53,640 nt of DNA from an uncultured archaeon (GTDB lineage Archaea > Aenigmatarchaeota > Aenigmatarchaeia > QMZP01): contig CAZAEI010000005.1 of NCBI GenBank assembly GCA_964484305.1, positions 1-53,640 on the forward strand, in the 5' to 3' direction. Below, piece after piece: positions 11,479-46,016 of the stretch. Each line of letters begins with the position of its first letter. The stretch's first letter is position 1. The notes beneath the pieces are model-generated. The model searched no databases, was not told where the DNA came from, and was given only the letters and a program-made list of their open reading frames with translations. The position numbers and the translations under genes are program-made.

Positions 11479-11483
11479 TGTAC

Positions 11484-17877: not shown

Positions 17878-18006
17878 GGAACGCACCATTAAGGCAAAAC
17901 ACAACATTACAATCTTGCCATGAAAACAATAAAAACACAGCACGGCCCGCGTTGTATATTATGGAGAGATATTTTCCTGCCTCCTGGTTTGCGGAAGGTT
18001 GGGAAA

Positions 18007-18023
18007 ATATAACGGTGTTATAT
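18007..18023. promoter_or_regulatory. Palindromic operator-like motif, copy 3 (ATATAAC-GGT-GTTATAT)
   Basis: Perfect 7-bp inverted repeat in the polB / hjc divergent intergenic region. Confidence 0.55.
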
Positions 18024-18059
18024 CCCACCAAATTAAAAGCCATTTACCCATATATTATC

Positions 18060-23096: not shown

Positions 23097-23228
23097 ATGA
23101 TGAAGAGAAAATGCCTAAAATGTGGACATAGGTGGGTTCCAAGAATAGATAATCCAAGGGTGTGTCCCAAATGCCATTCCGCATGGTGGGATAAGGAAAC
23201 TAAACATGCAAGTGGCAAAAACCGTTAG
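23097..23228 (+). CDS. 43-aa zinc-ribbon microprotein inside the IS, upstream of tnpB
   Basis: Translated by hand: MMKRKCLKCGHRWVPRIDNPRVCPKCHSAWWDKETKHASGKNR*. Two CxxC pairs; overlaps the tnpB start. Confidence 0.65.
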   Translation: MMKRKCLKCGHRWVPRIDNPRVCPKCHSAWWDKETKHASGKNR

Positions 23229-33400: not shown

Positions 33401-36314
33401 TGAACCCCGACTGGTTGACATCAAGGCCGTACTGGTCCACCAGCCCGGCCTCGAGGCGGTTGCTCGAGTTCCTGTGAAGGATTCCCCCATCCTCCGGCGC
33501 TGTGAGGCTTATGTTGACCCTCCCGCTTACTGTAAGGACAAAGCCACTGGAGTTCGAATCATTATAGTAGGTGTCATCCCAGACCCCAACCTTCCAGGTC
33601 TGGTTCCCGGCCGAGTAGTTCCCGTCCGGGGTGAAGTGGAAGACACAGTAACCCGATGAATTTGTAGAGCTGCTGTTACCCCCATCAAAACCCGAGCCAT
33701 TGTATGTCACCCAGAGTGTGCAGCTGACGCCCCCCTGGACCCATGTCTCAGTGTCAGTGTCGTTTATCATTACCACAAGCTCCACAGACTCTGACCTGTT
33801 CACCGAGCTCTCGTTGCCAGACACATAGACAACCTCGGTGCTGTGCTTCCTGGCCAGGGGCCCCCAGTATATGATGGTGTTCCGGGAGGAGTGCATTGGC
33901 CAGCCCGAGGAATTGAAGTCCTGATACTGGAACCCATACTTATTCACCCCTGACCAGTCCTTGTCCGAGGACATGTTGAACCAGGCTGTGCCATTGCCTG
34001 TTATATTGGTTGTGCTCCCATTGAACCATGAACCCATGTTCTCCAGCCAGTACCAGAGCGTGACGCTCACGTTGTCCCCGTCCGTGTCATTGACAAAAAC
34101 AGAGTAGTTGAACCACTCTCCCCATAGGCTGTCGTTCAGCGTCACGTTCGGGCTGCTCAGGTTCGCAGGAAGATTGGTGGCCCCGCCTGCCTGGTAGCTC
34201 ACACTGGAATTGGAATAAGGCTGCACCCACCTGAAGAATGTGTCCTTCTTGCAAACATAGAATGTGTCAGAACCGCAGCTGAACGGGGCGTATACAGGAC
34301 TCCCGAAGTCGCATGAGGAATCGTCCTGCTGTGGTGTTATGTTGCATGCCTGGCCAGACCAGGTGACATTCAGGAACAGCATGCCCTTGATTGAGGAATC
34401 ATCAACAGTGGTGTTTCCCGTTATGTTATAGAATGTTGTATTGGTCTCGTTCCATATGTTTATCGTCTTGCTGGAAAGGAAGCAGTCGGTCTCATTTGTA
34501 TAGGAATACCCTGATTCATTGCCCTTCACAGGCACGGCCGATGCCATGCTGTCATCCCAGAAATGGAACGGCTCAGGGAGCGGTCCTGCCTCATTAATCG
34601 TGAAGTCCGGCACATCACATGTGTTGTCCGGGCCCACTGCAGCGGTCTGGCAGGAACTCCCGTTGAAGTCGCACCTGCTGGCAGAGCCCGGAATCTTTAT
34701 GTACCTGACCTCAATGTCATGGTCCGGGCCTGCAGGGAAGCTCACGTTCCTGACCTCATATCCCACACTCTCGTTAACCCGGATATTCCATGTCCTTGAC
34801 GACGTGTTCGTGAGATTGGCATAGCTTACCACACCGCTGGCGTTATAGGAATATGATATATTCAGGCCGGATATATTGAGCCTTCCCTTGGCATCCGAGT
34901 GAAAAATAAGGCTGGTGTTGCATAAACTCTCTCCGCAAGAATCAAGTGCATCCTGGAACTCCCCCGCTATCCCAGTAACGGTTTGCATGGCCCTGAGCTT
35001 CCCTGACTTGTTCCAGTTGTATCCATCATCACCCCCCACGTCCAGCGAAACATTGGTTGGGAAGTAATCGAAATTGAAAACGTAAAGGTTTCCGTCTGAG
35101 ATTGTGGGGACATCACCTGCAAGCATCTCGTTCCCTATATCATTTGTAACGTCTCCTATAGCCACTGTTCTGACTATCTTCCCGGTCTGGTAGCTCCAAA
35201 TCAGATCCCCCGTTGAATCCAGTGTCAATATATCCCCGTTCTCCAGGCCCGCAACGATTTCGTTTCCCGGATATTCTTCAGTTGAGTCATCAATAGCAAC
35301 GTCTCTTACAATCGAACCTGTGGAATAGTTCCAGAGTTCATCACCACTCGAGTTGATAAGATATATCCTGGTGTTCGTCCCAAGGACTATCTCATCATTC
35401 TGGTCCGAGGTGATGTTGCCCGCTCCGACGCTGTTGATGTTAGAGACACTCTTACTCCAAAGGGTGTTTCCCTGTGAGTCAAGAACATAAACATTGGAAT
35501 CCGTGCCCACAACCGTTTCATTGCCTGAGGAGGAGTTTACATCACCCAAAGCAATCTCATTTATCGCCCCTGTGAAACCTGTTGAGTTCCATGCCAGGGT
35601 CTGGTTGTCCCAGTATACATAGACAGTGCTGGAATCCGCAGCGACTATCTCATTAATCTCGTCTCCATCCAGGTCTCCTATCTCCAAAGAATTAACTGCG
35701 TTTGATGGTCCAGCTGAGACATTGAAAGTCCACGCAACGGTCCCTCCCGCATCATTACAGTCTATTATATAAACGCTATTGTTCGAGCTCCCTGTCCCGG
35801 CCACAACCTCATCTCCAGGATTATTGGTCACATTTCCGACATCAGTAGCCAGAACCTCGTAGCTTCCTCCAAGAGAAAGGCTCCATATCAGGGTTCCGTT
35901 CTCCCCGTAAAGAACCCTTATAAGGCCCTCGGCTCCATCGGTTCCAACCACCGTCTCATTCCCATTGTGGGTTGTGATGTTTCCCACAGAGAGGCCCCTC
36001 AACCCAAGGAGGTTAACGGTCTCTGTATAGATTGGCGTCATTATCCCTGTCAGGCTCATGGTTGCGTTCAAAATTGTGGAGTTCTTCGGTACCTGAACAT
36101 AATAGGTCTTGTTCCCCCCTAATATTGGGAAATCGTGTATCTGGAAATAGCCAGAATCATTGAAAGTATCTTGCTCAAACGGGAAAACAGGACTGGCCAG
36201 GTCGAGGACAAACCCCTTCTGGACAGCTGCTGTTATCTCTGGGCTTCTGTACGCAACCAGGAGAAGCAGGAATATTGCTACAACTACGGCTAACCCCGCC
36301 CTTTTTGATACCAT
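27465..36314 (-). CDS. Giant (2949 aa) surface protein fused through a TM helix to a HerA/VirB4/FtsK-like (DUF87-like) ATPase
   Basis: N-terminal signal/TM, FG-GAP-like repeats (IGDLDGDEINEIV etc.), long N/S/T-rich beta-sandwich region, TM (IILLILSMLGMGIVGYYGW). Then HIIVAGATGAGKS, MVFDEVH, REFRKWGIGIIMCSQ. Confidence 0.88.
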   Translation of the reverse strand: MVSKRAGLAVVVAIFLLLLVAYRSPEITAAVQKGFVLDLASPVFPFEQDTFNDSGYFQIHDFPILGGNKTYYVQVPKNSTILNATMSLTGIMTPIYTETVNLLGLRGLSVGNITTHNGNETVVGTDGAEGLIRVLYGENGTLIWSLSLGGSYEVLATDVGNVTNNPGDEVVAGTGSSNNSVYIIDCNDAGGTVAWTFNVSAGPSNAVNSLEIGDLDGDEINEIVAADSSTVYVYWDNQTLAWNSTGFTGAINEIALGDVNSSSGNETVVGTDSNVYVLDSQGNTLWSKSVSNINSVGAGNITSDQNDEIVLGTNTRIYLINSSGDELWNYSTGSIVRDVAIDDSTEEYPGNEIVAGLENGDILTLDSTGDLIWSYQTGKIVRTVAIGDVTNDIGNEMLAGDVPTISDGNLYVFNFDYFPTNVSLDVGGDDGYNWNKSGKLRAMQTVTGIAGEFQDALDSCGESLCNTSLIFHSDAKGRLNISGLNISYSYNASGVVSYANLTNTSSRTWNIRVNESVGYEVRNVSFPAGPDHDIEVRYIKIPGSASRCDFNGSSCQTAAVGPDNTCDVPDFTINEAGPLPEPFHFWDDSMASAVPVKGNESGYSYTNETDCFLSSKTINIWNETNTTFYNITGNTTVDDSSIKGMLFLNVTWSGQACNITPQQDDSSCDFGSPVYAPFSCGSDTFYVCKKDTFFRWVQPYSNSSVSYQAGGATNLPANLSSPNVTLNDSLWGEWFNYSVFVNDTDGDNVSVTLWYWLENMGSWFNGSTTNITGNGTAWFNMSSDKDWSGVNKYGFQYQDFNSSGWPMHSSRNTIIYWGPLARKHSTEVVYVSGNESSVNRSESVELVVMINDTDTETWVQGGVSCTLWVTYNGSGFDGGNSSSTNSSGYCVFHFTPDGNYSAGNQTWKVGVWDDTYYNDSNSSGFVLTVSGRVNISLTAPEDGGILHRNSSNRLEAGLVDQYGLDVNQSGFNCSFWFNYTYLDSSNTTEYGRCNISWTPPCGYSRQDYLVNVTLTEPNGSYSILNEMDWSNVSLHDELNITILEPQDYSLFHRGNGAGFNSSVNDTCGLCSPGNYSVNWSVKWKRRLEAAVNKTPGYDEQTFPVIVNASGLEARNIDFGDWDINHTRVLLNGVDVPSRINAWNDSSRTVINWSQEYFNSYSELVFLVNQSGWENLTYEVVYNRSDEQEEFGYLENGGFESGVILPWGCFSSNCTGQYCQCEIRQEGNETNGSYSLYLSSENKGSDDPALQSASLSAGWPLGQDGIKIRYKPTGEFANDAYIRLYAGSGMCELDNTTGVWLEEVCYNASFSSALWVNITVHDYGDGGGEGGASHVHIDYVCLANSSGDCVNYHSGYPHTVSILSETPLNHSDNITWTIPLNETVGLRRVAANASGERYKPDVENLYVYIYGWSSLDAGNISSTNCTYNDTWVCRQNASMDVFCYVWDANISEPLEGHNVSFWGDGVYIGSNITDSDGVSLINWVNSSDSEGNHSIVCNITNDSDIFYNASDNNSAEIVFNISSGTTTAELGTDLTPPTPAGNLTKIFNSTYYLYINITNTGATESMYDVVVGINTSLTSGGIHAETVNCPPIPPAESCNRTSVVNVTYLATAGFKDIYVNVTWINSDTSQGNVSNATGVVVENNTVLNIVESELNYTMPKGGSALAGNFTVESFGNTELLSVNFSLSGGNASEISQWNLTYSPEPPVSVIPHDGKQLVNITVTVPDNATVGLYTANITANATGSDCSPANLCWDSLVFNLNVSMLDWRVSDTHLNKTIGRNPTPINGSIGTIQVINSKDADWSFNVTMDDQANGTGNITVSASNFTLTPFSAFSLEVYHNTTGEYAEGLYLTNITIANNEDAVPQSINVSVSLNVINFSIDILFPNQSNPATDIVPWDILNITANATMGGSPVDENITWYVVVGGLFCGNVQSAYNLTDQLWHINCSAPDIPGNFIKNILNLTGYYETEDVSFPAEETDAVIYRDVTAPQIHDIRVVNSDVDDEGNLQYSGSRSEVVMESDLTDNENVTSAWAWIYYEGTLRNTSGMYEISPGTWKFNFSSSLTEGDYRAVVFANDSTGNEANTSSSLMGYFDLYHPIDLNGTLADKDGVAIEANFTFYKSGTLWEIHDRFSANSSGGYNHTLHRRVYDTKLGFSGHEVLLYGVDVNASAVNQHGVEYPDNLTSPITLDLYTAENTTQIGVTLPEGAENPIMVIALEHNLTRTSSITSFSLDYTQALQDFYTYTPIGSITESSLGVYRCSNWSISERSCTGGFENVSISASVDTIEDRVGFNTTGASSYVVAEWEGTGENGNGNGDDGTGSTGGSSRSSIVSTITTTIPFTVTTSIGSIRIHPGENKTYLFSVKNKASENLTVSLDVQGLEDFIFPEKSLLEIAYNGSESIDVVVSVPDTMGTGTYTGSILVTAAGRSQEIPITMTVSIEAKDLVSLSINILTPNVNPGGKLRFGVELKNLALPPGFNVSIVYIIKDSERERVVADASEYVFLEESLAFTKSIEMKGNNPTGQYYLDIWAYFADGKSVNEVAVFNLVEPYWSSWEGKIILLILSMLGMGIVGYYGWGLYKKWKSERARYIFPINYRKMPQESGDSFWIGRVAETDRNAWFNPADLTTHIIVAGATGAGKSVGASVFVEEALDKNIPVIVFDPTAQWTGFVKALEDRNLMKYYSMFGMDPKSTRPFKGMIFEVTDPQELLRDIKKGFKKYLAPGEITVFALDKLKPGQYDEAVGIIIDSLFSMNWEESTTLKVIMVFDEVHRLLEKYGGKGGYVSLEKAAREFRKWGIGIIMCSQVLADFKEAIAGNVLTEVQLNTKSITDIQKVETKYGGEYAKKISRQGVGVGMLQNPKYNDGKPYFVQFRPTWHNPHKISNKEMELYSDFAGRLEEIDVKIERLKKAGEDTFEIELELKLARDKLKQGRFRMAQIYITSLEQHLSKGE

Positions 36315-36390
36315 GTATTATAATTACTTAACTTCATAATAAACCTTAACGGTTAACGTTGCGACAACTAACCAATAAAAAGCATCGGTT

Positions 36391-36606
36391 CTACTTTGCG
36401 TTCTTGATGACTTCCCTGAGGCTGGCTACTTCCTTCCTGAGCTCCCTCATCTCGTTGCTGAGCTGGAGCTCCTCCTCATCGAACTTCCTTGTTATCACCC
36501 TGAGTTGCCTGAACTCGAACTCCAGGATGACGAGGTAGACAACCACCACCGTGGAGAATATGACGAGCAACTCCAGTATGGGTACGTCAATGCCGAATAT
36601 GTACAT
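36391..36606 (-). CDS. 71-aa bitopic membrane protein with a C-terminal coiled coil
   Basis: Hydrophobic LELLVIFSTVVVVYLVIL followed by heptads; its ATG directly follows the upstream TAG. Confidence 0.7.
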   Translation of the reverse strand: MYIFGIDVPILELLVIFSTVVVVYLVILEFEFRQLRVITRKFDEEELQLSNEMRELRKEVASLREVIKNAK

Positions 36607-39600
36607 CTAGATACCCCCGTACGCCTGCGGCCTCCTTGACCTTACCTCCCTCAGACGCCTGAAGGAGAAGTATATCAATATCAGAGACACCATCACTATC
36701 ATGAGAATCTCAAGGGATTCGGGAATGCCCCCTGACACACCCATTACATAGAAGTTCCCTGTGGCAGAGGCCAGGACAGCAAAGTCCTCCCTGAATCTTG
36801 CCGAGGCGACATACATGCCGGACGGGGCAGCAGCGGGAATCACGAACTTCTCGTATGTCTCGGTCTTCTCCAGGGGCTCCATCCCCTCCAGACTCTCTAT
36901 GTTGGTGAATATCACATCCATTCCAGGCGTGTATATCTCAACCTCAAGGTAGGGATAATCAATCTTCTCCCCCCCGTTAATCACCAGGATCTCCAGGCTC
37001 ACGGGGCTGTTGAGGTTATACCTGTCCCTGTCAGGTGTTATTATAATAGTCGGGTAGCTCTCCTTGTATATCACCGTTATGGTCTTGAGCAGGCCTGCAT
37101 CCATCCTATCCACGGTTATGCTGCTAGTCTCCGGGCCCCCTGTGAATGGAAGCCTGTTGCCAAAACCATCCCTCACCTCCTCCACGTTCTGATAGGCAAT
37201 GGGAAGATTCAGGATAACATTCTCATAGCTCTCCTGGGCAAAGCTCTTGAGGTAGACATCCATCTTGAGCCTGACCTTCTTTTCAGGCAGCTGCTCCAGA
37301 ACCTCGATATCCCTGTCTATCTCAAGGACAGGGGGCGTCAGCACAGTAACCTCATAACTCCTGGTCTCAAATGCATTTATCGAGCCCTGCCATTGCATGA
37401 CCCTCCTTCCCTGTGAGTCCTTTGAGAATACAACAACCTCTTCTATCCTCCTTCCACTTTCATCAAAATAGCTTACATATCCGTCTGTTGCATCATCAAA
37501 AACCACGGCTTCGAAATCTGAACTGAGCCTTCTCGGATTCGGGTTGTATACATCAAAGTCCTTGTTCCATACAGCGGGCTTGCCCACAAGCACGGTCTTG
37601 GACTGCTTGAGTTCCCCCTCATCTATTGTCAGGGGTATGTTGGGCTCTGGTATGACTACCTTAACCACTCCATAGAGTGTGGTTGCCAGGGATGCTCCTG
37701 TATCAGGGTCGAATGCAGCTATCATGACAGGAAGCACATATGCCCCGGGGGTGGTGAAGTTTATCTGGTAAATAACCTCTATGTATTCATCATTCGTGAG
37801 GTTCCAGCCCTGGTATGTCCCGTTCACGAACTCGAACATCTGGACAGTTAGGCCATCTGAAAGGCTTGTCGTCCCGTTATCGGTTATATGGTAATCCACA
37901 CCATAGGTCAATACAGTGCCGTTGCGAATCACAACAGCATCGCCATTAGAGAAATTACCCCAATAGTCAGTATAGCTTATGGTGTTGTCAGGGACATAAT
38001 CCATGAACTTTATTCCTGATATGCCAGAACCCATGGTGTCCTCAACAGAAATGTTTATGGTTGTATTAATCAGCGTGGGGGTGCCGGGTGTGTAGGCTAT
38101 GAGGTCCTTGTAGCCAGTTATCCTCTTTCCTGACACAGTGACTGTCTGGTTGTTGAAGTATTCCCTGTCCTGGGTGTCAGAACTCGAGTTGAGTTGCCCG
38201 ATGCCCGAGAATACGTATTCATCACCGGTTGTCATCGCAATATCGGATGTGACCTTATATGATATCGTCAGGTTGTCGCTGTCGCTGCCACCGTTCGAAT
38301 TAAAGGTGTGACCGACCTTGTCCGATGTGCCCCAGAATACGCAGTTGGGAAGGTCGTATATGCTGACATTAACAAGACCGTCAGAGCTTTCTGTGGGGTC
38401 TGTTATCTCCAGCACGCAGTTGCTGTCGTTCTTGAGCCTGTAGGTTTCGTTCAGGTATATCACGACATCGTCCTGTATGTCCCAGCCGCTCCCCCTCCAG
38501 TACCCCAGATGTGTTTTGCTGGGAACATAGGAAAGAATCTGTACAAAATGGGGCTCTGTCTCATTGGCACCCACATTGTGAAGGGTGTCGTTTATTGTCA
38601 CATTTTCACCACCCATTTCAGGGGAGATCGTGCCAGAGACTGACTTTATACCATCCAGGTCGACCATGTATAGCACGGGAAGGTCCAGTGTTGTGTTTAT
38701 GTATGTTATATTGTTCTCGCTGTTTGTGGAGTTCCATATCACCTCCCAATTAAAGTAGACAGCTATATAGGGCTTGGAACCCGACGATGTATTGAACATG
38801 GTCTTGTTCGATGACCTTGAGGCATCGGTTGTGTATATCCTCCCATCATCGGGCGTTATGAGGTCAGTGGTCCCCGGAGTCACATTGAATCTCCCTGTCT
38901 GGTTGGCCGTGTCATAGGGCACACCCGATGACTGTATCTCATATATACCCCATTCGCTTATGTTGTATGTTAGGTTGTAGCCAGTGTCTGCTGCATCGCC
39001 CATGTTCCTTATGAGGCCCCTCACATACCAGAACCCCCCGTTTGAGGAGAGGTCAACACCATGCCTGATTGGTCCCCTAGTGAACTTGTCAGAAACCGTT
39101 ACCCCCGAGAACATATAGCTCGTGTTTGAATAGGTGGCGTTCTGACCGTCCCCTGAACCGGGCTGCAGGTCCACGCTGTCCGTCGTTCCGCTTATGTGAA
39201 CCCCTCCCGTTATGTTCAGCACGACAGTCAGGTTGACAGTCGAGGCTTTCCCTACATCCACGCTCGACCATGTTATGTAATCATTGAGTGTGCCAGTATC
39301 ATCACCACCATCATCAGAGACGGATACTGAACCGTCCTGTGCCGATGTGTCTATAACCGCAGGCTCGTCATTACCCTCAACATCCTTTACAAAGTTGATG
39401 ATTGATGTGATATCAACAAGGTCCCTTGTCGAGCTCGGGTTAGTGAGGCTGAAAACCAGGGTCATGTTGTTGTCAGGGTCATCTATGTTGGACTCATCAT
39501 AGAGGTCGTATCCCCCCCTGTCATTGGAATAATAAACCGAGAGGTTTATGGTCGGGGCAATGTTGGCAACATCATTGTCTATTGTGTAGCTGGTTGAGGA

Positions 39601-39966
39601 GTAGTCACCGGTGATGTTGACATAGAGGAGACTCCACTTGTCATCGGTGGGAAAGGATGTCAGAACATCCTGGTATACGGTGTCGTTATCTATGTCGGTA
39701 TTTGTGTTGTATCCGGAGTCAAGAGTCACCCTCATGTACTGGAGCACATCCTCATTGTTGGGAACAGACGCAAAGAACTGTCCGGTCCTTGCGGCAGTGG
39801 TCTTCACTGTCCCGTTGTGATAGTATTCGCCTGTCACATCCTCCTGTATCAGGAGCTTGGGCCCGTATATCTGGGCACGGGCACCCCCCAGAAGCACCGC
39901 TGTTAATATGAAGACAACACCTGTAACTAGAAGAATCCTTCTTGCCATCCACAAAGAAAGCCGCAT
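36607..39966 (-). CDS. Large C-terminally anchored surface (S-layer/adhesin-like) protein, paralog 1
   Basis: Signal peptide, Ig-like beta-rich body with many NxS/T sequons, C-terminal TM plus basic tail. Start at 39966 or 39948. Confidence 0.75.
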   Translation of the reverse strand: MRLSLWMARRILLVTGVVFILTAVLLGGARAQIYGPKLLIQEDVTGEYYHNGTVKTTAARTGQFFASVPNNEDVLQYMRVTLDSGYNTNTDIDNDTVYQDVLTSFPTDDKWSLLYVNITGDYSSTSYTIDNDVANIAPTINLSVYYSNDRGGYDLYDESNIDDPDNNMTLVFSLTNPSSTRDLVDITSIINFVKDVEGNDEPAVIDTSAQDGSVSVSDDGGDDTGTLNDYITWSSVDVGKASTVNLTVVLNITGGVHISGTTDSVDLQPGSGDGQNATYSNTSYMFSGVTVSDKFTRGPIRHGVDLSSNGGFWYVRGLIRNMGDAADTGYNLTYNISEWGIYEIQSSGVPYDTANQTGRFNVTPGTTDLITPDDGRIYTTDASRSSNKTMFNTSSGSKPYIAVYFNWEVIWNSTNSENNITYINTTLDLPVLYMVDLDGIKSVSGTISPEMGGENVTINDTLHNVGANETEPHFVQILSYVPSKTHLGYWRGSGWDIQDDVVIYLNETYRLKNDSNCVLEITDPTESSDGLVNVSIYDLPNCVFWGTSDKVGHTFNSNGGSDSDNLTISYKVTSDIAMTTGDEYVFSGIGQLNSSSDTQDREYFNNQTVTVSGKRITGYKDLIAYTPGTPTLINTTINISVEDTMGSGISGIKFMDYVPDNTISYTDYWGNFSNGDAVVIRNGTVLTYGVDYHITDNGTTSLSDGLTVQMFEFVNGTYQGWNLTNDEYIEVIYQINFTTPGAYVLPVMIAAFDPDTGASLATTLYGVVKVVIPEPNIPLTIDEGELKQSKTVLVGKPAVWNKDFDVYNPNPRRLSSDFEAVVFDDATDGYVSYFDESGRRIEEVVVFSKDSQGRRVMQWQGSINAFETRSYEVTVLTPPVLEIDRDIEVLEQLPEKKVRLKMDVYLKSFAQESYENVILNLPIAYQNVEEVRDGFGNRLPFTGGPETSSITVDRMDAGLLKTITVIYKESYPTIIITPDRDRYNLNSPVSLEILVINGGEKIDYPYLEVEIYTPGMDVIFTNIESLEGMEPLEKTETYEKFVIPAAAPSGMYVASARFREDFAVLASATGNFYVMGVSGGIPESLEILMIVMVSLILIYFSFRRLREVRSRRPQAYGGI

Positions 39967-40031
39967 ATTAATATTTAATGGTATGGTAAATATATAAAAC
40001 TTATACAAAACTTGTCTAATTTCCAGGATAT

Positions 40032-43000
40032 TTATCTTAATTCCCTCAGCTTCCTCTTGAGCTCCCCTATACCCTCCGGCCTCTTCCTCCTCCAGAACCT
40101 GAACAGCAGGTAGCCTATTGCTGCCAGGGCCACGGCCAGGAATACCATCCAGCTCAATGAAACAATGGTCCTTTCAGGGCAGTTCACATAGAAGTCTGAG
40201 TGGTCTGTAAGTATGGTCTGGAAGTCCTTCTTGAACCTGCTATAGACCGAATACTTCCCGTCAGAGAAGCTCCTCAAGTCCACCGAAAAGGGCAGCCTGA
40301 CCTCTTCCCATGGCCAGACATCCTTCATCTCCACAAGCTGGGCATTCATGGTCTTGAGGTGGGGACTGGGTCCCACCACCTCAATCTCCAGGTAGGAGCC
40401 TGTCTCCCTTTCAGAGGGGATTACGAACACCGTTATGTTGGCATAATCGCTGCACCCGTGCATCACCGCACCCATGGCAGTCAGAAGTATTGGCGGGACC
40501 TCTGTATAGACTATCGTGAGCTCCCTCTTCCGGCCAGCCTCCATCCTTCCCAGGAATATCTCTGTGGTAGAGTTGTCATATTCACTGTAGTTTAGCAGGT
40601 TCTCCCCCTCCATCACATATACAACGTTGCCGGTCCCTGACTTGAACAGGAGAGACACCCCGCTATAGACCTCGAGTGCAAAGTTCTCCACAGTGGTATT
40701 GACCACGAATCTTATCTCCCTCTCACCCGATTCCAGGACATTCACAACCCTCTTGGTTTCCAAGACAGGCGGTGTTACAGCCTCCAAGACATAGGTCTTG
40801 GTCTCACCAGACTTCAGCCTGAACGTGATGTCCACATGGGTTGTTTCACCCTCCTTGAGAGCCAGGGATTCCCTGTCTCCCCCCTCCCGAATGACATGGG
40901 CGCTCAGGGTGTCAGGAAAGACCTCCAGCCTCATTAAGTGCTCCACAGAGACACTGTTTGGATTATGAACCGTCAGGCCCTTTGTCCATCTTACAGGGAC
41001 GCCCACACGCACCCCCTCTACTTGCCATCCCCCATCCACGACCTCAAGGTCCTGAAGAATCCCCTCCCTCCTGACAGGGATGTACATATCCTCAAATATG
41101 TATTTATCCTCATAGTAGTTGTAGCCAAACACCCTTGTTATAAGGAAGCTGGTTCCCACAGGAACCGTGGTTTTGTAGCTGATCTCTATCTTGTCCCCAT
41201 TGAACAGGTTCAGGCTCTCCTCAAGCAGCCCGCCTGATGTAATCTTGGTTATAAGGTATTCCCTGTGCCTTCTGCCATTCACCAAGGTCATGCCGTTATC
41301 GGTCATCTTGTAGTCATTTCCCGGGTTCCACTCAATCCATTTCCCCGAAGAGTTTTCATATATCCTGAATGAGAGGGATGAGATGTCAAGGCTCCCGTAC
41401 TCGGGTATGTAAATAACGGCCTTGATATCCTTTACCCCCTTGTTCCCTGTATCAATTATATTATATCTTGCCAGAACACGGACGAGGTTATCTGCTATAA
41501 AGTAGCCCTCTCCCATCTCCCTTGCTATGTCAGCATACATGGCGGGTTCAACAGGCCCTCCGCCAGGGCCACCCGGTTCAGGCTCTCCACCAACCCCCGG
41601 AATGACCACATCCTGGCATACATTCTTGGTCACAGGCGTGCCCGAGAGCGTGACCAGTGTGGATGTCTGGCAGAACTGATATGTATGTGTGCTGGCATGG
41701 GAGCCCCCTGCCACGTCATACTCAAGCCTTATATCCTCATTCTGCTGGAGGCCGTGGCCCAGAAGAGAAGTTAAATTGTTTATGCTTACATTCACAAAAC
41801 CATCGTTCAGGGTGGTGGCTGCCTGGGTCATTATGGAGACCTGGGTGGTTATCTCTGTCTGTCCAGATGCGTTTATATAGAACACCCTGACATCAGATGG
41901 GGCCCAGTTGTTGCTTGTACCCCCGGCTGACTGATGTGGTATGACAGAGCCTATACTAACAGAACCGACTGAGAGGCCTGAATGCCCGATGTGCCTGGCC
42001 AGGTCCTGTACCGACAGGCCCGTTCCGCTCTCGGTGCTGTACCCCACAACTACGCTCTTGTCCACCCATGCATCTATCTCATAGAGCACAGGCAGGCTTA
42101 TGGTAGCCTGGCTCATGCTTGAATAATATGACGAACCCCAGACTACCTCCCAGTCCCAGGACGTGCTGTAATATCCTCCCTTGTCCTGCATTCCCGGAAG
42201 GCCTGTGTCATACCAGTCCGTATATTTGGTTTCGCCTGGGTTGAAGGGATATATCTCCTCACTTGAGGATATGACCGGAGAGCCCTGACCTATCTGATAC
42301 AGCCCCCATCCGTGTATCCTGTAGTCCAGTCCCAGTGCCATGTTCCTGATGAAACCCCTCACTATCCATGTATCCATGGTGAGCATATCCACACCCACCC
42401 TCACCGGGCCGCGGGAGAACCTGTCAACAAAGCTTATCCCAGTGGGGGTGGATGTTCCTGTACTTGTGTGGGTGGCCTGGCTCGTGGTCTCCTGGTCAAG
42501 GTCCACATACATGAAGTTTTCATTAAAGTTCACATCGGGTGTGATGTATCCCCGGAAGTATATCTCCACATCCACGCCGGCTGACAGGGGACCAGTCCAG
42601 GAGAGCATATCAAAGAAGCCGTCCCCGTCAGAATCCCAGGAATCACTATTCCCTGAGGTGGGGGATACCCCATAGAGGTGAATGGAATCATTGAGACCAA
42701 GCGTGTTCCTGGCGAACCTCAGGTAGACAGAGACCCCGTTCAGGTCATGCGTGGAGTTTATGGTCAGATCGAAGCTGAATGAATTGGTTCCGCCCGAATA
42801 GATGTCCCTCCCCCCGGCATCGTTTGCATACTCCATGCCAAGGTATATCACCGGCATCACACCACCGGTTATATTATAGCTTATGTTGCTCTCGCTGCTT
42901 GTTGTGTTGACATAGAGCCTGGTCCTGTCACCGGGGCTTGGTGATGCCGCCACCCCCCTGTAGGTAAGGGTTGACTGAAGGTTTGTGTTGGCGGTTCCAG

Positions 43001-43229
43001 AGAGCTCAAGAACGAGATACTGGAGAACATCCAGCTGGTTCGGGACCTCGACCTCCACGTATCCAAGGCACACCACCGGGCTTACCAGGGAGCCGTCTGT
43101 GTTGTAATCTGCACCGGAAACCTCTGTTATATAGGATGTCGGAACATCCGCCCTGGCGACAGCCGGATATAAAAGCAGGGAAACCAAACTTATCACTAGG
43201 ACGGACTTCCAATGGGCTGGCCAAACCAT
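40032..43229 (-). CDS. Large C-terminally anchored surface protein, paralog 2
   Basis: Collinear motifs shared with paralog 1 (VPNxxDVLQY, RGPxRxGVD, WxVRGxIRNM, WEVxW, LPVLY, TPPVLE); C-terminal TM. Confidence 0.75.
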   Translation of the reverse strand: MVWPAHWKSVLVISLVSLLLYPAVARADVPTSYITEVSGADYNTDGSLVSPVVCLGYVEVEVPNQLDVLQYLVLELSGTANTNLQSTLTYRGVAASPSPGDRTRLYVNTTSSESNISYNITGGVMPVIYLGMEYANDAGGRDIYSGGTNSFSFDLTINSTHDLNGVSVYLRFARNTLGLNDSIHLYGVSPTSGNSDSWDSDGDGFFDMLSWTGPLSAGVDVEIYFRGYITPDVNFNENFMYVDLDQETTSQATHTSTGTSTPTGISFVDRFSRGPVRVGVDMLTMDTWIVRGFIRNMALGLDYRIHGWGLYQIGQGSPVISSSEEIYPFNPGETKYTDWYDTGLPGMQDKGGYYSTSWDWEVVWGSSYYSSMSQATISLPVLYEIDAWVDKSVVVGYSTESGTGLSVQDLARHIGHSGLSVGSVSIGSVIPHQSAGGTSNNWAPSDVRVFYINASGQTEITTQVSIMTQAATTLNDGFVNVSINNLTSLLGHGLQQNEDIRLEYDVAGGSHASTHTYQFCQTSTLVTLSGTPVTKNVCQDVVIPGVGGEPEPGGPGGGPVEPAMYADIAREMGEGYFIADNLVRVLARYNIIDTGNKGVKDIKAVIYIPEYGSLDISSLSFRIYENSSGKWIEWNPGNDYKMTDNGMTLVNGRRHREYLITKITSGGLLEESLNLFNGDKIEISYKTTVPVGTSFLITRVFGYNYYEDKYIFEDMYIPVRREGILQDLEVVDGGWQVEGVRVGVPVRWTKGLTVHNPNSVSVEHLMRLEVFPDTLSAHVIREGGDRESLALKEGETTHVDITFRLKSGETKTYVLEAVTPPVLETKRVVNVLESGEREIRFVVNTTVENFALEVYSGVSLLFKSGTGNVVYVMEGENLLNYSEYDNSTTEIFLGRMEAGRKRELTIVYTEVPPILLTAMGAVMHGCSDYANITVFVIPSERETGSYLEIEVVGPSPHLKTMNAQLVEMKDVWPWEEVRLPFSVDLRSFSDGKYSVYSRFKKDFQTILTDHSDFYVNCPERTIVSLSWMVFLAVALAAIGYLLFRFWRRKRPEGIGELKRKLRELR

Positions 43230-43397
43230 GTATAATAATTATCCTGAATAATAAATAAAGCAGACCTATCAATACTTTACACGCCAATTTCATAGTATAG
43301 GATTCTAACGGAATATCGGAAAGATGCTATCCATAGACTTATATAACAAGATATGTAAGCCTAAATTGATAAAGAATATACGATAAGGCATGGAAAA

Positions 43398-44747
43398 ATG
43401 ACTGAAATCCCTGTATGCAAAATTGAAGTAAAGGGAAAATCAGAGCAAATCACAATAAAGAAAGGTGCTGTTAATCTCAAAAACAACAATATTCTTCTCT
43501 TAAGGTCTTCACAAGAAAACATCTCTTGGCTGGCTAAAGTGTCTTCGCATGGTTATTCTAATTACATTCGTTTGACCTCAAATCTAAAACAAAGACCTAC
43601 TGATATTGAGGTTATTAAAATAGCTAAAGTAGGCGAAAGACCTCCCCTTGGGCCGCTTTCTAGAAACCAAGTGGATATATTGAACTTTATTAATGATAAT
43701 TGTACATGCATAGAAAGACCTCAAGGAAATGTTAGCATATACAAGCCACCCAAAGGACCCAGCATAACAATAAAAAGAATAATAAACCTGGACGAAGATT
43801 TAGCATGGTCAATAGGATTTTACCTCGCCGAAGGTCCTAAGGTCAGTTATGGTGTTGGAATAACCAATCACGAACTTTATCTTTTAAAACACTTTCAAGA
43901 GTCTATAGAAAAGAATTTTGATATTCAAAATAAAGAGTGGTTTGTTTATATCCATTCTCGTAATAAAGATAGTTCTAAAAAATTTAAAAGCAGGATTGTG
44001 CGCATCTTCCAAACAAATAAAATTAGTGATGTCAAGGCCAGATTAGCAACTAAAGATACTATTGAATTAAAAATTAACAATACCTTATTTGCCATTATTT
44101 TTAACCAATTTGTTTCAAAAGCAATAGAATTAATATTAGAAGATACATCTCTTGCTTTGGCGTTTTTAAAAGGCTATGAAATTGGCGATGGTTGTATTCT
44201 TCAACGTAATAGCTGCTATTTATATGGTATATGTATAACAACTAAAAACAACAGCAACAAAGAAATTTTAGTAAAAACATTGCAAAAATTGTATAATAAA
44301 AAACCAAGAATAAGAAGTAATAAAGGCTGTTATGAGATTACATGTACAGGAATAAATTTAATGACAGAATTTATTTTGGATGAACATTTTTCTTCATCAC
44401 CAAAACAGTGGAAAAAAATAATAAATTCTTATCTTAAGAAACAATATACAAGATCCCACATTAGATATTGGTTGGCATTAAAAAATAAAAAATTGCTTAC
44501 AAGAGAAATGGCACAAATTGCTGGTAGATCATATTGGTCGGTTCTAGATGCTATGAATAAAGATGCAAAATTAGGATTGATAAAAACTGAAAAGAGAAGG
44601 TTTCCTAACAAAGCGGGTCTCCACAATATTTATTCCCTCACAAACAAGGGGGACAAGCTATTGAGTTTAATAGGAGGTGTTGATGAAAAAACCAATTCGA
44701 GTAGCCTTGATGGGAGCTGGGGGAAGAGACAGGCGCTGGCCCTCTAA
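43398..44747 (+). CDS. Free-standing two-motif LAGLIDADG endonuclease with a C-terminal winged HTH
   Basis: LAWSIGFYLAEG and LAFLKGYEIGDG motifs; C-terminal TREMAQIAGRSYWSVLDAM...IYSLTNKG. Strongly AT-rich; overlaps the next gene by 65 nt. Confidence 0.8.
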   Translation: MTEIPVCKIEVKGKSEQITIKKGAVNLKNNNILLLRSSQENISWLAKVSSHGYSNYIRLTSNLKQRPTDIEVIKIAKVGERPPLGPLSRNQVDILNFINDNCTCIERPQGNVSIYKPPKGPSITIKRIINLDEDLAWSIGFYLAEGPKVSYGVGITNHELYLLKHFQESIEKNFDIQNKEWFVYIHSRNKDSSKKFKSRIVRIFQTNKISDVKARLATKDTIELKINNTLFAIIFNQFVSKAIELILEDTSLALAFLKGYEIGDGCILQRNSCYLYGICITTKNNSNKEILVKTLQKLYNKKPRIRSNKGCYEITCTGINLMTEFILDEHFSSSPKQWKKIINSYLKKQYTRSHIRYWLALKNKKLLTREMAQIAGRSYWSVLDAMNKDAKLGLIKTEKRRFPNKAGLHNIYSLTNKGDKLLSLIGGVDEKTNSSSLDGSWGKRQALAL

Positions 44748-46016
44748 TTCCACAACTTCCTTGTATACTTTAAGGACAACCCAACCTACAAAGTCGTATG
44801 CTTTACGGCTACCCAGATACCTGGAATAGAAAACAGAACATTCCCAAAAGAGTTTGCTGACAAGCTTTATACCAGAGGTATACCTATCTATCCCGAGGAA
44901 AGACTACCAGAACTTATCAGGAAATATAAAATCGATATGGTGGTCCTGGCCTACAGCGACCTCTCCCACGCAGACGTGATGCACAGGGCAAGCCTGGTTA
45001 ATTCCCTGGGTCCTGACTTTGTCCTTATGGGAACCAGGAACACCATGCTGAAATCCCGCAGGCCTGTGATAGCCGTGACTGCCGTGAGGACGGGCTGCGG
45101 CAAGTCCCAGACCACCAGGAAGCTCGCCATGATTCTCAAAACCCTTGGAAAGAGGGCCGCCGTGGTCAGGCACCCCATGCCCTATGGAGACCTCAGGAAG
45201 CAGGCCTGCCAGAGGTATGAGCGCTTCAAGGACCTTGACATACACAGGTGCACAATCGAGGAGAGGGAGGAATACGAACCACTTATAGAGGACTCTGACA
45301 TACTCTATGCCGGGGTTGACTATGAAAGAATTCTCAGGGAGGCTGAGGGGGAGGCCGATGTCATAATCTGGGACGGCGGGAACAACGACACCCCCTTCTT
45401 CAGACCAGACCTCCACATCGTCATAGTAGACCCCCACAGGGCCTTCCATGAGATATCATACCATCCCGGCGAGACCAACTTCAGAATGGCCGACGTGATC
45501 ATAATCAACAAGGAAAGGACCGCACCAGAGGGCAGCGTGAGGATAATCAGGGAGCACATCAGGGCATACAACCCCAAGGCCACGGTTGTGGATGCGAACT
45601 CTGTGATAACAGTGAACGACCCCGCCCTTATCCAGGGCAGGCGCGTCCTGGTTGTTGAGGACGGCCCCACCCTGACCCACGGCGGTATGTCCTATGGCGC
45701 CGGGACAATTGCGGCCAGGCATTTCTCTGCCAGACCAGTGGACCCCAGGCCCTATGCCACGGACTCCATAAAGAGGGTCTTCATGAAATACCCGCACCTC
45801 GGCAATGTCCTGCCGGCCATGGGATACTCTGAGAAGCAGGTGAGGGAGCTCGGGCGCACCATAAACAGGGTCAAATGCGACGCCGTCATATCCGGCACCC
45901 CAATAGACCTGAGAAGGATAATCCATGTCAGGAAACCCATAGTCCGGATACATTACAACCTCGAGGAGACCAGCAGGCCCAACCTCACGGACATAGTTAA
46001 GGACTTCCTCAAATAA
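44683..46016 (+). CDS. P-loop GTPase, COG2403 / cyclic 2,3-diphosphoglycerate synthase-like; predicted spliced, join(44683..44730,44748..46016), 438 aa
   Basis: GGAGGTG RBS and ATG at 44683. Exon 1 MKKPIRVALMGAGGRD joined to FHNFLVYFKDNPTYKVVCFTATQIPGI restores the family motif GRDFHNF. Also AVRTGCGKSQT, WDGGNND, EDGPT. Confidence 0.85.
44731..44747 (+). other. Candidate 17-nt bulge-helix-bulge (BHB) mRNA intron
   Basis: AGGCGCTGGCCCTCTAA. Forms a 3-nt bulge (ACA), a 4-bp helix (AGAG/CUCU) and a 3-nt bulge (AAU). Cleavage after the second nt of each bulge excises exactly these 17 nt. Confidence 0.82.

What the first reader, a model, noticed from the sequence alone, without database searches (positions are those of the whole stretch)
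44712..44760. Canonical bulge-helix-bulge mRNA intron (17 nt) in a protein-coding GTPase gene
Seen: the gene has a strong RBS and ATG at 44683 but is frameshifted by a 17-nt insert between GRD and FHNF. The RNA folds as follows: outer helix G44722-C44751, G44723-C44750, A44724-U44749; bulge A44746-A44747-U44748; 4-bp helix A44725-U44745, G44726-C44744, A44727-U44743, G44728-C44742; bulge A44729-C44730-A44731; inner GGC/GCC stem with a 4-nt loop. An extra exon-exon stem pairs 44712-16 with 44756-60. Known: the archaeal splicing endonuclease EndA cuts after the second nt of each bulge, which here removes exactly 44731-44747 and restores GRDFHNF. BHB introns are familiar in tRNA and rRNA, and the well-documented mRNA case is crenarchaeal cbf5. 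Inference: EndA-dependent splicing of a metabolic mRNA in a probable DPANN archaeon. Other apparent frameshifted genes in this genome may hide similar introns.
Basis: partly seen in the sequence, partly recalled or inferred. Interest (0 to 1): 0.95.

Follow-up and report, generated by a model that had tools for sequence, protein, structure and literature searches.

The report
Spliced mini-intron with homing endonuclease
A 17-base archaeal-type (bulge-helix-bulge) intron really does interrupt a protein-coding gene here; it recurs with compensating base changes in at least 13 lineages, almost always beside a homing-endonuclease gene, so it looks like a mobile "endonuclease plus mini-intron" cassette not described before in archaea.

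Summary
Removing 44731-44747 joins a 16-codon 5' exon (ATG 44683) to the 3' exon. This restores the invariant GAxGRD|FHNF motif of a COG2403 "predicted GTPase / cyclic-2,3-DPG-synthase-like" protein (438 aa).

The insert is not an assembly error: three independent assemblies carry it. The motif alone is weak evidence, since a BHB-shaped sequence occurs about 110 times per strand by chance. The comparative evidence is decisive:
- Thirteen lineages carry a 17-31 nt insert at the same codon boundary.
- All thirteen have 3-4-3 BHB geometry, and the central helix pairs in 100% of cases.
- The helix covaries with the Arg codon (AGAG/CTCT, AGGG/CCCT, CGTG/CACG, CGCG/CGCG).
- Every complete spliced ORF is intact.

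The ORF just upstream (43398-44747) is a double-motif LAGLIDADG homing endonuclease. That gene, the 5' exon, the intron and about 190 nt of the 3' exon form a 1.67-kb AT-rich tract that syntenic relatives lack. The host is an Aenigmatarchaeote (DPANN).

Best reading: an EndA/RtcB-spliced mRNA intron that is the protective half of a mobile cassette, an archaeal analogue of "collaborative homing". Splicing and the endonuclease's target are inferred, not shown.

The parts
43265..44936 (+). Imported AT-rich cassette tract: endonuclease gene, substitute SD and 5' exon, intron, and about 190 nt of co-converted 3' exon.
   Evidence: GC is 0.23-0.40 here against about 0.52 for the window. Syntenic relatives L004 and L005-7 have only 41 bp between the upstream minus-strand gene and the GTPase ATG. 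Homology to L005 ends after ..AAATAAAGCAGA at 43264. Identity to L004 is 0.53-0.67 up to codon 79 (44936), then 0.77-0.95.
43398..44747 (+). Free-standing double-motif LAGLIDADG homing-endonuclease ORF (449 aa). The folded part ends near residue 428 (about 44681); the tail reads through the GTPase 5' exon into the intron.
   Evidence: Pfam LAGLIDADG_3 at 25.2 bits, above its cut-off. The two motifs LAWSIGFYLAEG and LAFLKGYEIGDG have invariant E145 and D264. A profile hits I-DmoI and intein endonucleases in the PDB. The AF2 model has pLDDT 85 and residues 429-449 fall below 50. Foldseek top hits are LAGLIDADG enzymes plus a C-terminal winged helix.
44673..44679 (+). Shine-Dalgarno GGAGGTG of the GTPase gene, encoded by the endonuclease's conserved C-terminal codons (..LIGGV).
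   Evidence: Sequence. Equivalent purine-rich stretches lie before the start codon in the other cassettes.
44683..44730 (+). 5' exon, 16 codons: MKKPIRVALMGAGGRD. It is of foreign (cassette) origin.
   Evidence: It differs at 14 of 16 codons from the native-type exon of L004 and L005 but keeps the family consensus.
44731..44747 (+). 17-nt BHB intron AGGCGCTGGCCCTCTAA.
   Evidence: It is present in three independent assemblies at 99.9% identity.
44722..44751 (+). hBHBh' motif: outer helix 44722-24/44749-51, central 4-bp helix 44725-28/44742-45, bulges 44729-31 and 44746-48, inner helix 44732-34/44739-41, loop 44735-38.
   Evidence: Covariation across 13 lineages.
44712..44760 (+). Extended exon-exon stem (44712-16 with 44756-60) that closes the BHB.
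   Evidence: It appears in the MFE fold. It is 5/5 paired here and 3-5/5 in the other lineages. It lies in conserved codons, so it is not independent evidence.
44748..46016 (+). 3' exon (422 codons plus stop) of the COG2403-family P-loop NTPase. Codons 17-79 are cassette-type; the rest is native.
43230..43264 (+). Remnant of the native intergenic/promoter region (AT-rich TATA-like TAATAAATAAAG). It now lies upstream of the cassette.
   Evidence: It aligns with the 41-bp intergenic region of L004 and L005. Its role as promoter of an endonuclease-GTPase transcript is inference.

Best explanation
The 17 nt at 44731-44747 are a genuine archaeal bulge-helix-bulge intron in the coding region of an mRNA. 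The gene encodes a COG2403-family P-loop NTPase in an Aenigmatarchaeote.

Splicing step (inferred). In the transcript, exon and intron bases fold into a 3-nt bulge, a 4-bp helix and a 3-nt bulge. The tRNA-splicing endonuclease EndA cuts after the second nucleotide of each bulge. The RtcB ligase joins GAC to TTC. This restores the invariant GRDFHNF motif and a 438-aa reading frame.

Mobility step (linkage shown, mechanism inferred). The intron is one half of a composite mobile element. The other half is a free-standing LAGLIDADG homing-endonuclease gene immediately upstream, whose last codons supply the ribosome-binding site of the NTPase gene. The proposed cycle is as follows. The endonuclease cuts intron-less alleles in the highly conserved GRD|FHNF coding DNA. 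Repair from a cassette-bearing allele copies the endonuclease gene, the short 5' exon, the intron and some 3' exon. The intron splits the recognition site, so the carrier is immune, and splicing keeps the host gene working. This is 'collaborative homing' with a protein-spliced BHB intron in place of a group I ribozyme.

Shown here:
- the structure, its conservation and its covariation;
- intact exons under purifying selection;
- physical linkage to the endonuclease gene;
- the insertion polymorphism and the conversion tract.

Inferred:
- cleavage by EndA and ligation;
- the endonuclease's activity and target site;
- immunity conferred by the intron.

I put the splicing claim at about 0.85 and the homing claim at about 0.55.
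For: 1. The excision predicted by the BHB rule is the only one that restores the invariant motif.
2. Thirteen lineages have an insert of 17, 17, 17, 24, 19, 23, 29, 24, 29, 29, 28, 21 or 31 nt at exactly this codon boundary, all with 3-4-3 geometry.
3. Covariation: 96.2% of cells are paired and the central helix is 100% paired. Five pairs change on both sides, in 23 cells. No shuffle out of 500 reaches the observed score, and slid controls pair only 28-53%. The intron strand tracks the Arg codon: AGA/CTCT, AGG/CCCT, CGT/CACG, CGC/CGCG.
4. The frame-preserving inserts (21 and 24 nt) contain in-frame stops, so they too need removal.
5. All nine complete spliced ORFs are 434-445 aa. dN is 0.17-0.27 with saturated dS among four intron-bearing lineages. 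The 5' exons keep the family consensus despite many synonymous changes.
6. The insert is present in three independent assemblies.
7. Eleven endonuclease loci were examined, ten of them from related lineages, and ten carry the intron in the adjacent gene.
8. The endonuclease is a confident LAGLIDADG fold with both acidic residues invariant.
9. Syntenic relatives lack the cassette. The foreign tract spans both sides of the intron site.
10. An intron-only allele in a 55% GC contig has a 75% GC intron and an open spliced reading frame up to the contig end. The intron therefore persists without the endonuclease.
Against: - There is no RNA evidence. None of nine spliced proteins exists in the 15-billion-protein public collection.
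- endA and rtcB are not in the window, so their presence in this genome rests on their generality in archaea.
- The BHB shape is common by chance, and the fold energy is not exceptional.
- The pair-count alignment was assembled by position from the splice sites with loops trimmed, so it is not blind to the model.
- For the homing half, the endonuclease's cleavage site is untested.
- One locus has the endonuclease without an intron (L138) and one has the intron without the endonuclease (L088).
- The left junction of the cassette in the window lies in non-conserved intergenic DNA. Ordinary homologous repair does not explain it if the donor was a distant lineage.
Confidence: 0.78

Rival explanations
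1. The intron is spliced as described, but the neighbouring endonuclease is not its mobility partner. It might target a different site, such as its own insertion point upstream of the ATG. It might be an inactive or domesticated remnant. Or the linkage might only reflect common descent of one ancestral arrangement.
For: - The target site is untested.
- L138 has the endonuclease without an intron, and L088 the intron without the endonuclease.
- LAGLIDADG enzymes are normally encoded inside introns or inteins, not beside them.
- The C-terminal winged-helix domain resembles transcription regulators.
Against: - The cassette occurs in MAGs assigned to both Aenigmatarchaeota and Micrarchaeota, with endonuclease identity down to 31%. 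It lies in unrelated upstream neighbourhoods. A spreading element needs a conserved target, and GRD|FHNF is the only invariant DNA nearby.
- The foreign tract in the window flanks the intron site on both sides.
- Both catalytic acidic residues are invariant in 12 homologues.
Confidence: 0.17
2. The gene is dead. The insert is only a scar, or a target-site disruption left by a selfish endonuclease. No splicing occurs, and the cell either uses a truncated protein from M at 44937 or does without the protein.
For: - Gene callers report only the 359-aa ORF, or no gene at all in the NCBI records.
- No spliced protein is on record.
- DPANN genomes tolerate gene loss.
Against: - The truncated product would lack the invariant N-terminal motif and about 80 conserved residues.
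- Thirteen lineages keep the start codon, an SD-like sequence, a consensus 5' exon and an open 3' exon. Meanwhile the intron loops and the endonuclease have diverged almost completely.
- dN is far below dS.
- Helix covariation has no explanation under this model.
Confidence: 0.04
3. Translational recoding: ribosomes bypass or frameshift over the insert, as in phage T4 gene 60, without RNA splicing.
For: In L010 the insert is flanked by GAT...GAT with a stop right after the first. That resembles take-off and landing codons.
Against: - Matching flanking codons are absent in the window (GAC ... TAA|TTC) and in most lineages.
- Insert lengths give all three frame offsets.
- The conserved feature is the BHB geometry with pairing between exon and insert, not codon identity.
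Confidence: 0.01

Closest known systems
cbf5 pre-mRNA BHB intron of Crenarchaeota (Watanabe 2002; Yokobori 2009, PMC2738675)
   Same: It is a short BHB intron (16-44 nt) inside a protein-coding region. It is removed by the tRNA-splicing endonuclease and is present or absent among related species.
   Different: - The gene, phylum (DPANN) and position (codon 16/17 of a P-loop NTPase) all differ.
- The cbf5 introns have no associated endonuclease, and their origin is unexplained (PMC2738675).
- Here a LAGLIDADG gene is linked in 10 of the 11 endonuclease loci examined.
- cbf5 splicing was demonstrated experimentally. This one has not been.
5'-UTR BHB intron of Haloferax volcanii HVO_1309 (PMC7714728)
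   Same: It is an mRNA substrate of EndA with an hBHBh' motif.
   Different: It lies in the untranslated leader, so it does not interrupt a reading frame. It is a single-species case with no mobility gene.
Archaeal rRNA BHB introns that encode LAGLIDADG homing endonucleases (I-DmoI, I-Tsp061I and others)
   Same: They use the same splicing chemistry and the same endonuclease family. I-DmoI and I-Tsp061I are among the closest solved relatives.
   Different: There the endonuclease ORF lies inside a long intron of a non-coding RNA gene. Here the intron is 17-31 nt with no coding capacity, and the endonuclease gene is free-standing, upstream of a protein-coding host gene.
Collaborative homing: free-standing F-CphI plus the psbA group I intron of cyanophage S-PM2 (Zeng 2009; PMC6083498)
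   Same: A free-standing endonuclease gene sits next to an ORF-less intron. The intron is thought to interrupt the enzyme's own target and protect the carrier, while the enzyme gives the intron mobility.
   Different: That case is bacterial-viral. It uses a self-splicing group I ribozyme and an Endo VII-type nuclease, and its cleavage specificity was shown experimentally. Here the element is archaeal and chromosomal, the intron needs host enzymes, the nuclease is LAGLIDADG, and the specificity is untested.
Free-standing Seg/Mob homing endonucleases of T4-like phages ('intron-less homing', PMC2790892, PMC2988022)
   Same: The gene sits in an intergenic site and cuts a nearby conserved gene in genomes that lack it. 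Flanking markers are co-converted.
   Different: Immunity there comes from target-site polymorphism, not an intron, although L138 here may work that way. The nuclease families also differ (GIY-YIG, HNH).

Membership tests
Archaeal BHB (hBHBh') intron / EndA substrate | Two 3-nt bulges on opposite strands, separated by a 4-bp helix (definition in PMC7714728). | tested here: met
   Window: bulges 44729-31 and 44746-48, helix 44725-28/44742-45. All 13 lineages keep 3-4-3, with the central helix paired in 52 of 52 cells.
Archaeal BHB (hBHBh') intron / EndA substrate | Flanking helices h and h' on both sides of the bulges. | tested here: met
   The outer helix GGA/TCC is 3 bp in 10 of 13 lineages and 2 bp plus a mismatch in 3. 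The first three inner positions pair in 94.9% of cells. L015 has an A.C next to the bulge.
Archaeal BHB (hBHBh') intron / EndA substrate | Cleavage inside the bulges gives a functional mature RNA after ligation. | tested here: met
   In silico only. Cutting after the second bulge nucleotide on each side restores GRD|(F/Y)HNF in 13 of 13. It gives full-length ORFs in all 9 loci with both gene ends present.
Archaeal BHB (hBHBh') intron / EndA substrate | Structure maintained by compensatory substitutions. | tested here: met
   Five pairs change on both sides. The covariation score is 0.535 against 0.195 for shuffles, with 0 of 500 reaching it.
Archaeal BHB (hBHBh') intron / EndA substrate | Actual cleavage by EndA and ligation by RtcB, with a spliced RNA and a circular or linear intron detectable. 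| not testable with these tools
   No transcript data are available. No spliced protein is in the public collection. endA and rtcB are not encoded in the 53.6-kb window.
LAGLIDADG homing endonuclease (double-motif, monomeric) | Two LAGLIDADG helices, each ending in a catalytic acidic residue, on an alpha-beta-beta-alpha-beta-beta-alpha core. | tested here: met
   The motifs are ..GFYLAEG.. and ..GYEIGDG.. with invariant E145 and D264. Pfam PF14528 scores above its cut-off. A profile hits I-DmoI at E = 7e-5. The model has pLDDT 85 and Foldseek gives probability 1.0 to many LAGLIDADG structures.
LAGLIDADG homing endonuclease (double-motif, monomeric) | Site-specific cleavage of the allele that lacks the element. 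| not testable with these tools
   Only indirect evidence exists: the insertion polymorphism and the conversion tract around the intron site.
Collaborative homing (free-standing endonuclease plus ORF-less intron) | The endonuclease gene lies outside but adjacent to an intron that has no ORF of its own. | tested here: met
   The endonuclease ORF ends from 3 nt before to 64 nt after the host-gene start codon. The intron begins 42-57 nt downstream of that start. Ten of the 11 endonuclease loci examined carry the intron.
Collaborative homing (free-standing endonuclease plus ORF-less intron) | The endonuclease cuts the intron-less allele at or near the intron insertion site, and the intron prevents self-cleavage. 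| not testable with these tools
   This is inference. It rests on the invariance of the GRD|FHNF DNA, on the spread of the cassette across phyla, and on the breakpoint in L005 at the insertion site.
COG2403 'predicted GTPase / cyclic 2,3-diphosphoglycerate synthase-like' proteins | Full-length similarity, including the N-terminal GAxGRDFHNF motif and the P-loop (GCGKS). | tested here: met
   The spliced protein is 83% and 81% identical to P0001 and P0002 over 100% of its length, and 60-64% identical to Pyrococcus and Thermococcus proteins. The enzymatic function is not established: the Pfam cobW hit is below threshold, and NCBIfam and the PDB give no hit.

The most novel reading that the evidence does not exclude
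This would be the first archaeal case of collaborative homing. A free-standing LAGLIDADG endonuclease and a 17-31 nt BHB mini-intron would form one composite mobile element that invades a protein-coding gene. It would spread between DPANN lineages, with the cell's tRNA-splicing enzymes repairing the mRNA. It would also supply a mechanism for how short mRNA BHB introns such as those in cbf5 arise, and for how they persist after the endonuclease is lost, as in L088.
Probability: 0.5. Interest if true: 0.9.

Novelty: new variant of a known kind. Interest (0 to 1): 0.85.

Why it matters
Introns inside archaeal protein-coding regions are known from essentially one gene, cbf5 in Crenarchaeota. There is one further case in a 5' UTR (PMC7714728), and a 2025 paper still cites only cbf5 (PMC12397907).

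- This adds a second, widely distributed coding-region intron in a different superphylum, backed by strong covariation.
- It shows that EndA/RtcB splicing can rescue an essential-looking motif of an mRNA.
- It shows that such genes are systematically mis-called as truncated or pseudogenes. None of nine spliced products is in public protein data, which matters for metabolic reconstruction of DPANN MAGs.
- The linkage to a homing endonuclease makes the origin and mobility of archaeal mRNA introns directly testable. That question was left open for cbf5 (PMC2738675).
- It extends the 'collaborative homing' idea from self-splicing introns in phages to protein-spliced introns in archaea.
- The endonuclease itself is a candidate new meganuclease with a defined, conserved target of about 20 bp.

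Tried and rejected
- Thermodynamics: the fold of 44706-44766 is not more stable than shuffles (z = -0.82). The MFE uses a 2-nt bulge register, so energy alone neither finds nor supports the BHB.
- Motif counting: a strict 3-4-3 BHB is as frequent in the window as in random sequence.
- Rfam: no family at gathering score in the window. Only a chance snoRNA-like hit (E = 0.49) lies in 43200-45000.
- Other hidden introns: BHB candidates whose removal lengthens an ORF only fuse neighbouring genes or shadow ORFs. None is convincing.
- tRNA scan: no tRNA genes in the window, so no internal BHB reference.
- Viral carriers: no relative of the cassette in IMG/VR, by protein or by DNA pattern.
Only 2 of 119 stretches were real (L039, L088), so the census is incomplete.
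- Organism names through cluster look-up: none returned. Taxonomy came from PolB instead.
- Function of the host protein: NCBIfam gave no hit, the PDB none, and Pfam only a sub-threshold cobW hit.
- An idea dropped: that the endonuclease stop codon coinciding with the intron's last base (TAA 44745-47) is meaningful. In other lineages the stop lies anywhere from before the ATG to the 5' splice site, and the tail is disordered in the model.
- A second idea dropped: that a larger intron contains the endonuclease ORF. The 5' exon with its own SD and ATG lies downstream of the ORF body.
Full report
**1. What is in the sequence**

- The stretch 44683-44730 opens with a good ribosome-binding site (GGAGGTG, 44673-79) and an ATG. 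It encodes MKKPIRVALMGAGGRD.
- The reading frame then breaks. Unspliced, it runs into a 50-aa ORF.
- Deleting exactly 44731-44747 gives a 1317-nt ORF of 438 aa.

**2. What the gene is**

- The spliced product matches the family that sources call 'predicted GTPase' or 'cyclic 2,3-diphosphoglycerate synthase' over its full length. It is 83% and 81% identical to its nearest relatives and about 62% identical to Pyrococcus and Thermococcus proteins.
- In an 18-member alignment, G11, A12, G14, R15, D16, F17 and N19 are invariant. The insert therefore splits the most conserved motif at the N-terminus, between D16 and F17.
- The biochemical function is not established. Pfam gives only a sub-threshold cobW/P-loop hit. 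NCBIfam and the PDB give nothing.

**3. Not an artefact**

- The truncated 359-aa product is on record from seven contigs.
- Three assemblies from different samples carry the same DNA, including the 17 nt, at 99.9% identity: SRR9707989, JGI 3300031365 and SRR8556769.

**4. Is the shape beyond chance?**

- On its own, no. A 3-4-3 bulge-helix-bulge with 3-bp flanking helices occurs 128 and 173 times on the two strands. Random sequence of the same composition gives 84-122 per strand.
- The local fold is not unusually stable (z = -0.82).
- The BHB register lies 1.5 kcal/mol above the MFE.
- The non-trivial point is the register. Position and length are fixed independently by protein homology. For one such combination the chance expectation is about 6e-5.

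**5. Comparative evidence, the decisive part**

Homologues of the upstream ORF (see section 7) and a DNA pattern scan led to twelve further lineages. In each, the same gene carries an insert at the same codon boundary. Written as outer | central helix | bulge | inner | central helix | bulge | outer:

| Locus | Motif | Length |
|---|---|---|
| window | GGA\|AGAG\|ACA\|GGCGCTGGCC\|CTCT\|AAT\|TCC | 17 |
| L008 | GGT\|AGGG\|ATA\|GGTAATAACC\|CCCT\|AAT\|TCC | 17 |
| L009 | GGA\|AGGG\|ATA\|GGTATTAGCC\|CCCT\|AAT\|TCC | 17 |
| L010 | GGA\|CGTG\|ATT\|GATCGTTATTAACGATC\|CACG\|ATT\|TCC | 24 |
| L014 | GGA\|CGTG\|ATT\|AGCCAGAAGGTT\|CGCG\|AAT\|TCC | 19 |
| L015 | GGA\|CGTG\|ATT\|AGCTGCAGTAGCAGCC\|CACG\|AAT\|TCC | 23 |
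| L039 | GGA\|CGTG\|ATT\|AATCAAAACTAATTGTTTGATT\|CACG\|AAT\|TCC | 29 |
| L088 | GGA\|CGCG\|ACA\|GGGCCCGGTGAAGGCCC\|CGCG\|AAT\|TCC | 24 |

- L137 and L140 (29 nt), L142 (28), L143 (21) and L145 (31) follow the same plan.
- The loops share no sequence, and the lengths give all three frame offsets.
- The three inserts whose length is a multiple of three contain in-frame stops.
- I made a position-anchored alignment, with columns counted from the homology-defined splice sites and loops replaced by a spacer. On it, 96.2% of cells pair and the central helix pairs in 100% of cells.
- Five pairs change on both sides, in 23 cells. No shuffle out of 500 reaches the observed covariation. Sliding the partner strand by 1-3 columns drops pairing to 28-53% (11-sequence version).
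- The clearest signal is the central helix. Its 5' strand is exon (the last base of a Gly codon plus the Arg codon), and the intron strand follows the Arg codon: AGA with CTCT, AGG with CCCT, CGT with CACG or CGCG, CGC with CGCG.
- In three lineages the unconstrained MFE is the BHB itself. In the rest of the eleven folded, the BHB lies within 0.3-2.4 kcal/mol of the MFE.

**6. Selection on the exons**

- All nine loci that contain both ends of the gene give uninterrupted spliced ORFs of 434-445 aa.
- The short 5' exons keep a start codon, an SD-like sequence and the family consensus (..KVxIxGAAGRD), while differing at many synonymous sites.
- Four lineages share intron features and so probably inherited the intron. 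Among them dN is 0.17-0.27 while dS is saturated.
- A gene silenced by the insert would not look like this.

**7. The surroundings: a homing endonuclease and an imported cassette**

- The 449-aa ORF 43398-44747 directly upstream has two LAGLIDADG motifs with invariant acidic residues E145 and D264.
- A profile of the family hits I-DmoI and intein endonucleases in the PDB.
- The predicted structure is confident (pLDDT 85, pTM 0.84). It matches LAGLIDADG enzymes, and its C-terminal domain is a winged helix.
- Residues 429-449 overlap the NTPase 5' exon and are predicted to be disordered. The functional protein therefore ends at ..LLSLIGGV. Those codons (TTA ATA GGA GGT GTT) are the SD of the NTPase gene.
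- The stop codon falls on the last three intron bases here. In other lineages it lies anywhere from just before the ATG to the 5' splice site, so that coincidence carries no meaning.
- The region 43265-44936 has GC 0.23-0.40 in a 0.52 genome.
- Syntenic relatives have the same upstream 1067-aa gene and the same downstream TrkA and glutamate-synthase-domain genes. They have only 41 bp where the window has 1.45 kb, and their NTPase gene is uninterrupted.
- Homology to them ends at 43264, 6 nt before their ATG. Identity to L004 is 0.53-0.67 through codon 79, then jumps to 0.77-0.95 from 44937 on.
- The foreign tract therefore comprises the endonuclease gene, a substitute 5' exon, the intron and about 190 nt of 3' exon. 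Such a conversion tract spans the intron insertion site on both sides.
- L005-7 lack the cassette. They combine a native-type 5' exon with cassette-type codons immediately 3' of the insertion site. That would fit an old repair event at that point.

**8. Host and distribution**

- All but one of the named best hits of the window's family-B DNA polymerase are Candidatus Aenigmatarchaeota. The exception is a Nanoarchaeota MAG. 'DPANN' is therefore correct.
- Among 185,579 representative genomes, four close relatives of the endonuclease were found, in two Aenigmatarchaeota and two Micrarchaeota MAGs. There was also one weak bacterial hit at 24% identity.
- Eleven endonuclease loci were examined. 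Ten carry the intron in the adjacent NTPase gene.
- L138/L139 have the endonuclease but an intron-less, variant target (..GAT|TTTCACAATTAT).
- L088 has the intron but only about 50 bp to a divergent upstream gene and no endonuclease. Its intron is 75% GC in a 55% GC contig, which suggests long residence.

**9. Mechanism proposed**

- Shown: the RNA can form a canonical hBHBh' motif whose canonical cleavage sites give the only functional junction. The motif is maintained by compensatory evolution. The exons are under purifying selection. The intron is physically linked to a LAGLIDADG gene in a cassette that is polymorphic among relatives and compositionally foreign.
- Inferred from established knowledge of archaeal tRNA, rRNA and cbf5 splicing (PMC7714728, PMC2738675): EndA cuts in both bulges and RtcB ligates the exons.
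- Inferred by analogy with free-standing homing endonucleases and collaborative homing (PMC6083498, PMC2790892): the endonuclease cuts intron-less GRD|FHNF DNA, repair copies the cassette, and the intron interrupts the site to give immunity.
- The argument for that target is indirect. An element found in two phyla and in unrelated upstream neighbourhoods needs a conserved site, and this motif is the only invariant DNA within reach.
- The retained native AT-rich segment 43230-43264 may now drive an endonuclease-NTPase transcript. This is inference.

**10. Rivals**

- A dead gene is contradicted by sections 5 and 6.
- Translational bypass lacks matching take-off and landing codons in most lineages, and it does not explain pairing between exon and insert.
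- Assembly error is excluded by section 3.
- The serious alternative concerns only the second half of the model: the intron may be spliced while the endonuclease is not, or is no longer, its mobility partner.

**11. Comparison with what is known**

- It works like the crenarchaeal cbf5 intron, and it passes every sequence-level criterion for a BHB intron. The biochemical criterion could not be tested.
- It differs in gene, phylum and, above all, in having an associated endonuclease. The cbf5 authors noted that those introns are too short to encode one and left their origin open (PMC2738675).
- It differs from rRNA introns such as the I-DmoI intron because the endonuclease gene lies outside the intron.
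- It resembles the F-CphI/psbA arrangement of cyanophages in architecture, but it uses a protein-spliced intron and a LAGLIDADG enzyme.
- Searches of the held literature found no report of this intron, of BHB introns in DPANN protein-coding genes, or of a BHB intron paired with a free-standing endonuclease.
- None of nine spliced proteins is in the public protein collection.

**12. Verdict**

- This is a new variant of a known kind.
- Confidence is about 0.85 for a functional spliced intron and about 0.55 for the collaborative-homing mechanism.

Noticed in passing
L138 3440-3700 (and L139): The endonuclease homologue P0131 sits upstream of an NTPase gene that has no intron (GGGAGAGAT|TTTCACAATTAT, FHNY instead of FHNF). 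There is no ATG, GTG or TTG between the preceding stop and GAAGRD. This could be target-site immunity by sequence change, or a decaying or unusually initiated gene.
   Followed up: partly
L088 (reverse strand) about 13341-13410: This is an intron-only allele. A 24-nt, 75% GC BHB intron with an in-frame TGA sits in a 55% GC contig. No endonuclease is present, and only about 50 bp separate it from a divergent upstream gene. The taxonomy of this contig was not determined.
   Followed up: partly
L005/L006/L007, codons 17-51 of the NTPase gene: These relatives lack the cassette. They have a native-type 5' exon but window-cassette-type sequence starting exactly at the intron insertion site (codons 17-23 and 41-51). 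This looks like a remnant conversion tract, or a precise loss of intron and endonuclease.
   Followed up: partly
L137 2003-2440: An archease gene lies immediately upstream of the endonuclease in MAG GCA_964654575.1. Archease is the family that activates the RtcB RNA ligase. It may well be coincidence.
   Followed up: no
window 43398-43790 (endonuclease residues 1-130): The long endonuclease forms (P0121-P0125) carry an extra beta-rich N-terminal domain of about 130 aa that the short forms (P0126-P0132) lack. The best structural matches of the whole protein are intein-associated endonucleases. A degenerate Hint or DNA-recognition domain is possible.
   Followed up: no
window 44745-44747 and the equivalent positions in L008-L145: Most introns start with, or quickly reach, an in-frame stop (GAT|TAG, GAT|TGA, AGG TAA). 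Unspliced mRNA would therefore yield only a 16-22 aa peptide. The window is the exception, with a 50-aa product.
   Followed up: partly
L008 4305-5647; L010 4032-5390: The NCBI records of the two Aenigmatarchaeota MAGs call no gene at all over the intron-containing NTPase gene. Other pipelines call N-terminally truncated proteins of 359-424 aa. This is systematic mis-annotation.
   Followed up: yes
window 23206-24318 (+): This ORF has a Cas12f1-like/TnpB TNB domain (E = 9e-17). It lies in a lower-GC kilobase (0.47). It is probably an IS200/IS605-type element.
   Followed up: no
window 27465-43229 (-): Three consecutive giant ORFs of 2949, 1133 and 1065 aa lie here. The one scanned (1065 aa) has no Pfam hit. 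The two translations read (1133 and 1065 aa) are rich in N-x-S/T sequons, so they are probably surface proteins. The last one is the divergent upstream neighbour of the cassette.
   Followed up: no
window 11478-12689 (+), 15223-17943 (-), 17952-18425 (+): Cdc6/Orc1, family-B DNA polymerase and the Hjc Holliday-junction resolvase are clustered here. An AT-richer patch near 11-12 kb could be a replication origin region.
   Followed up: no
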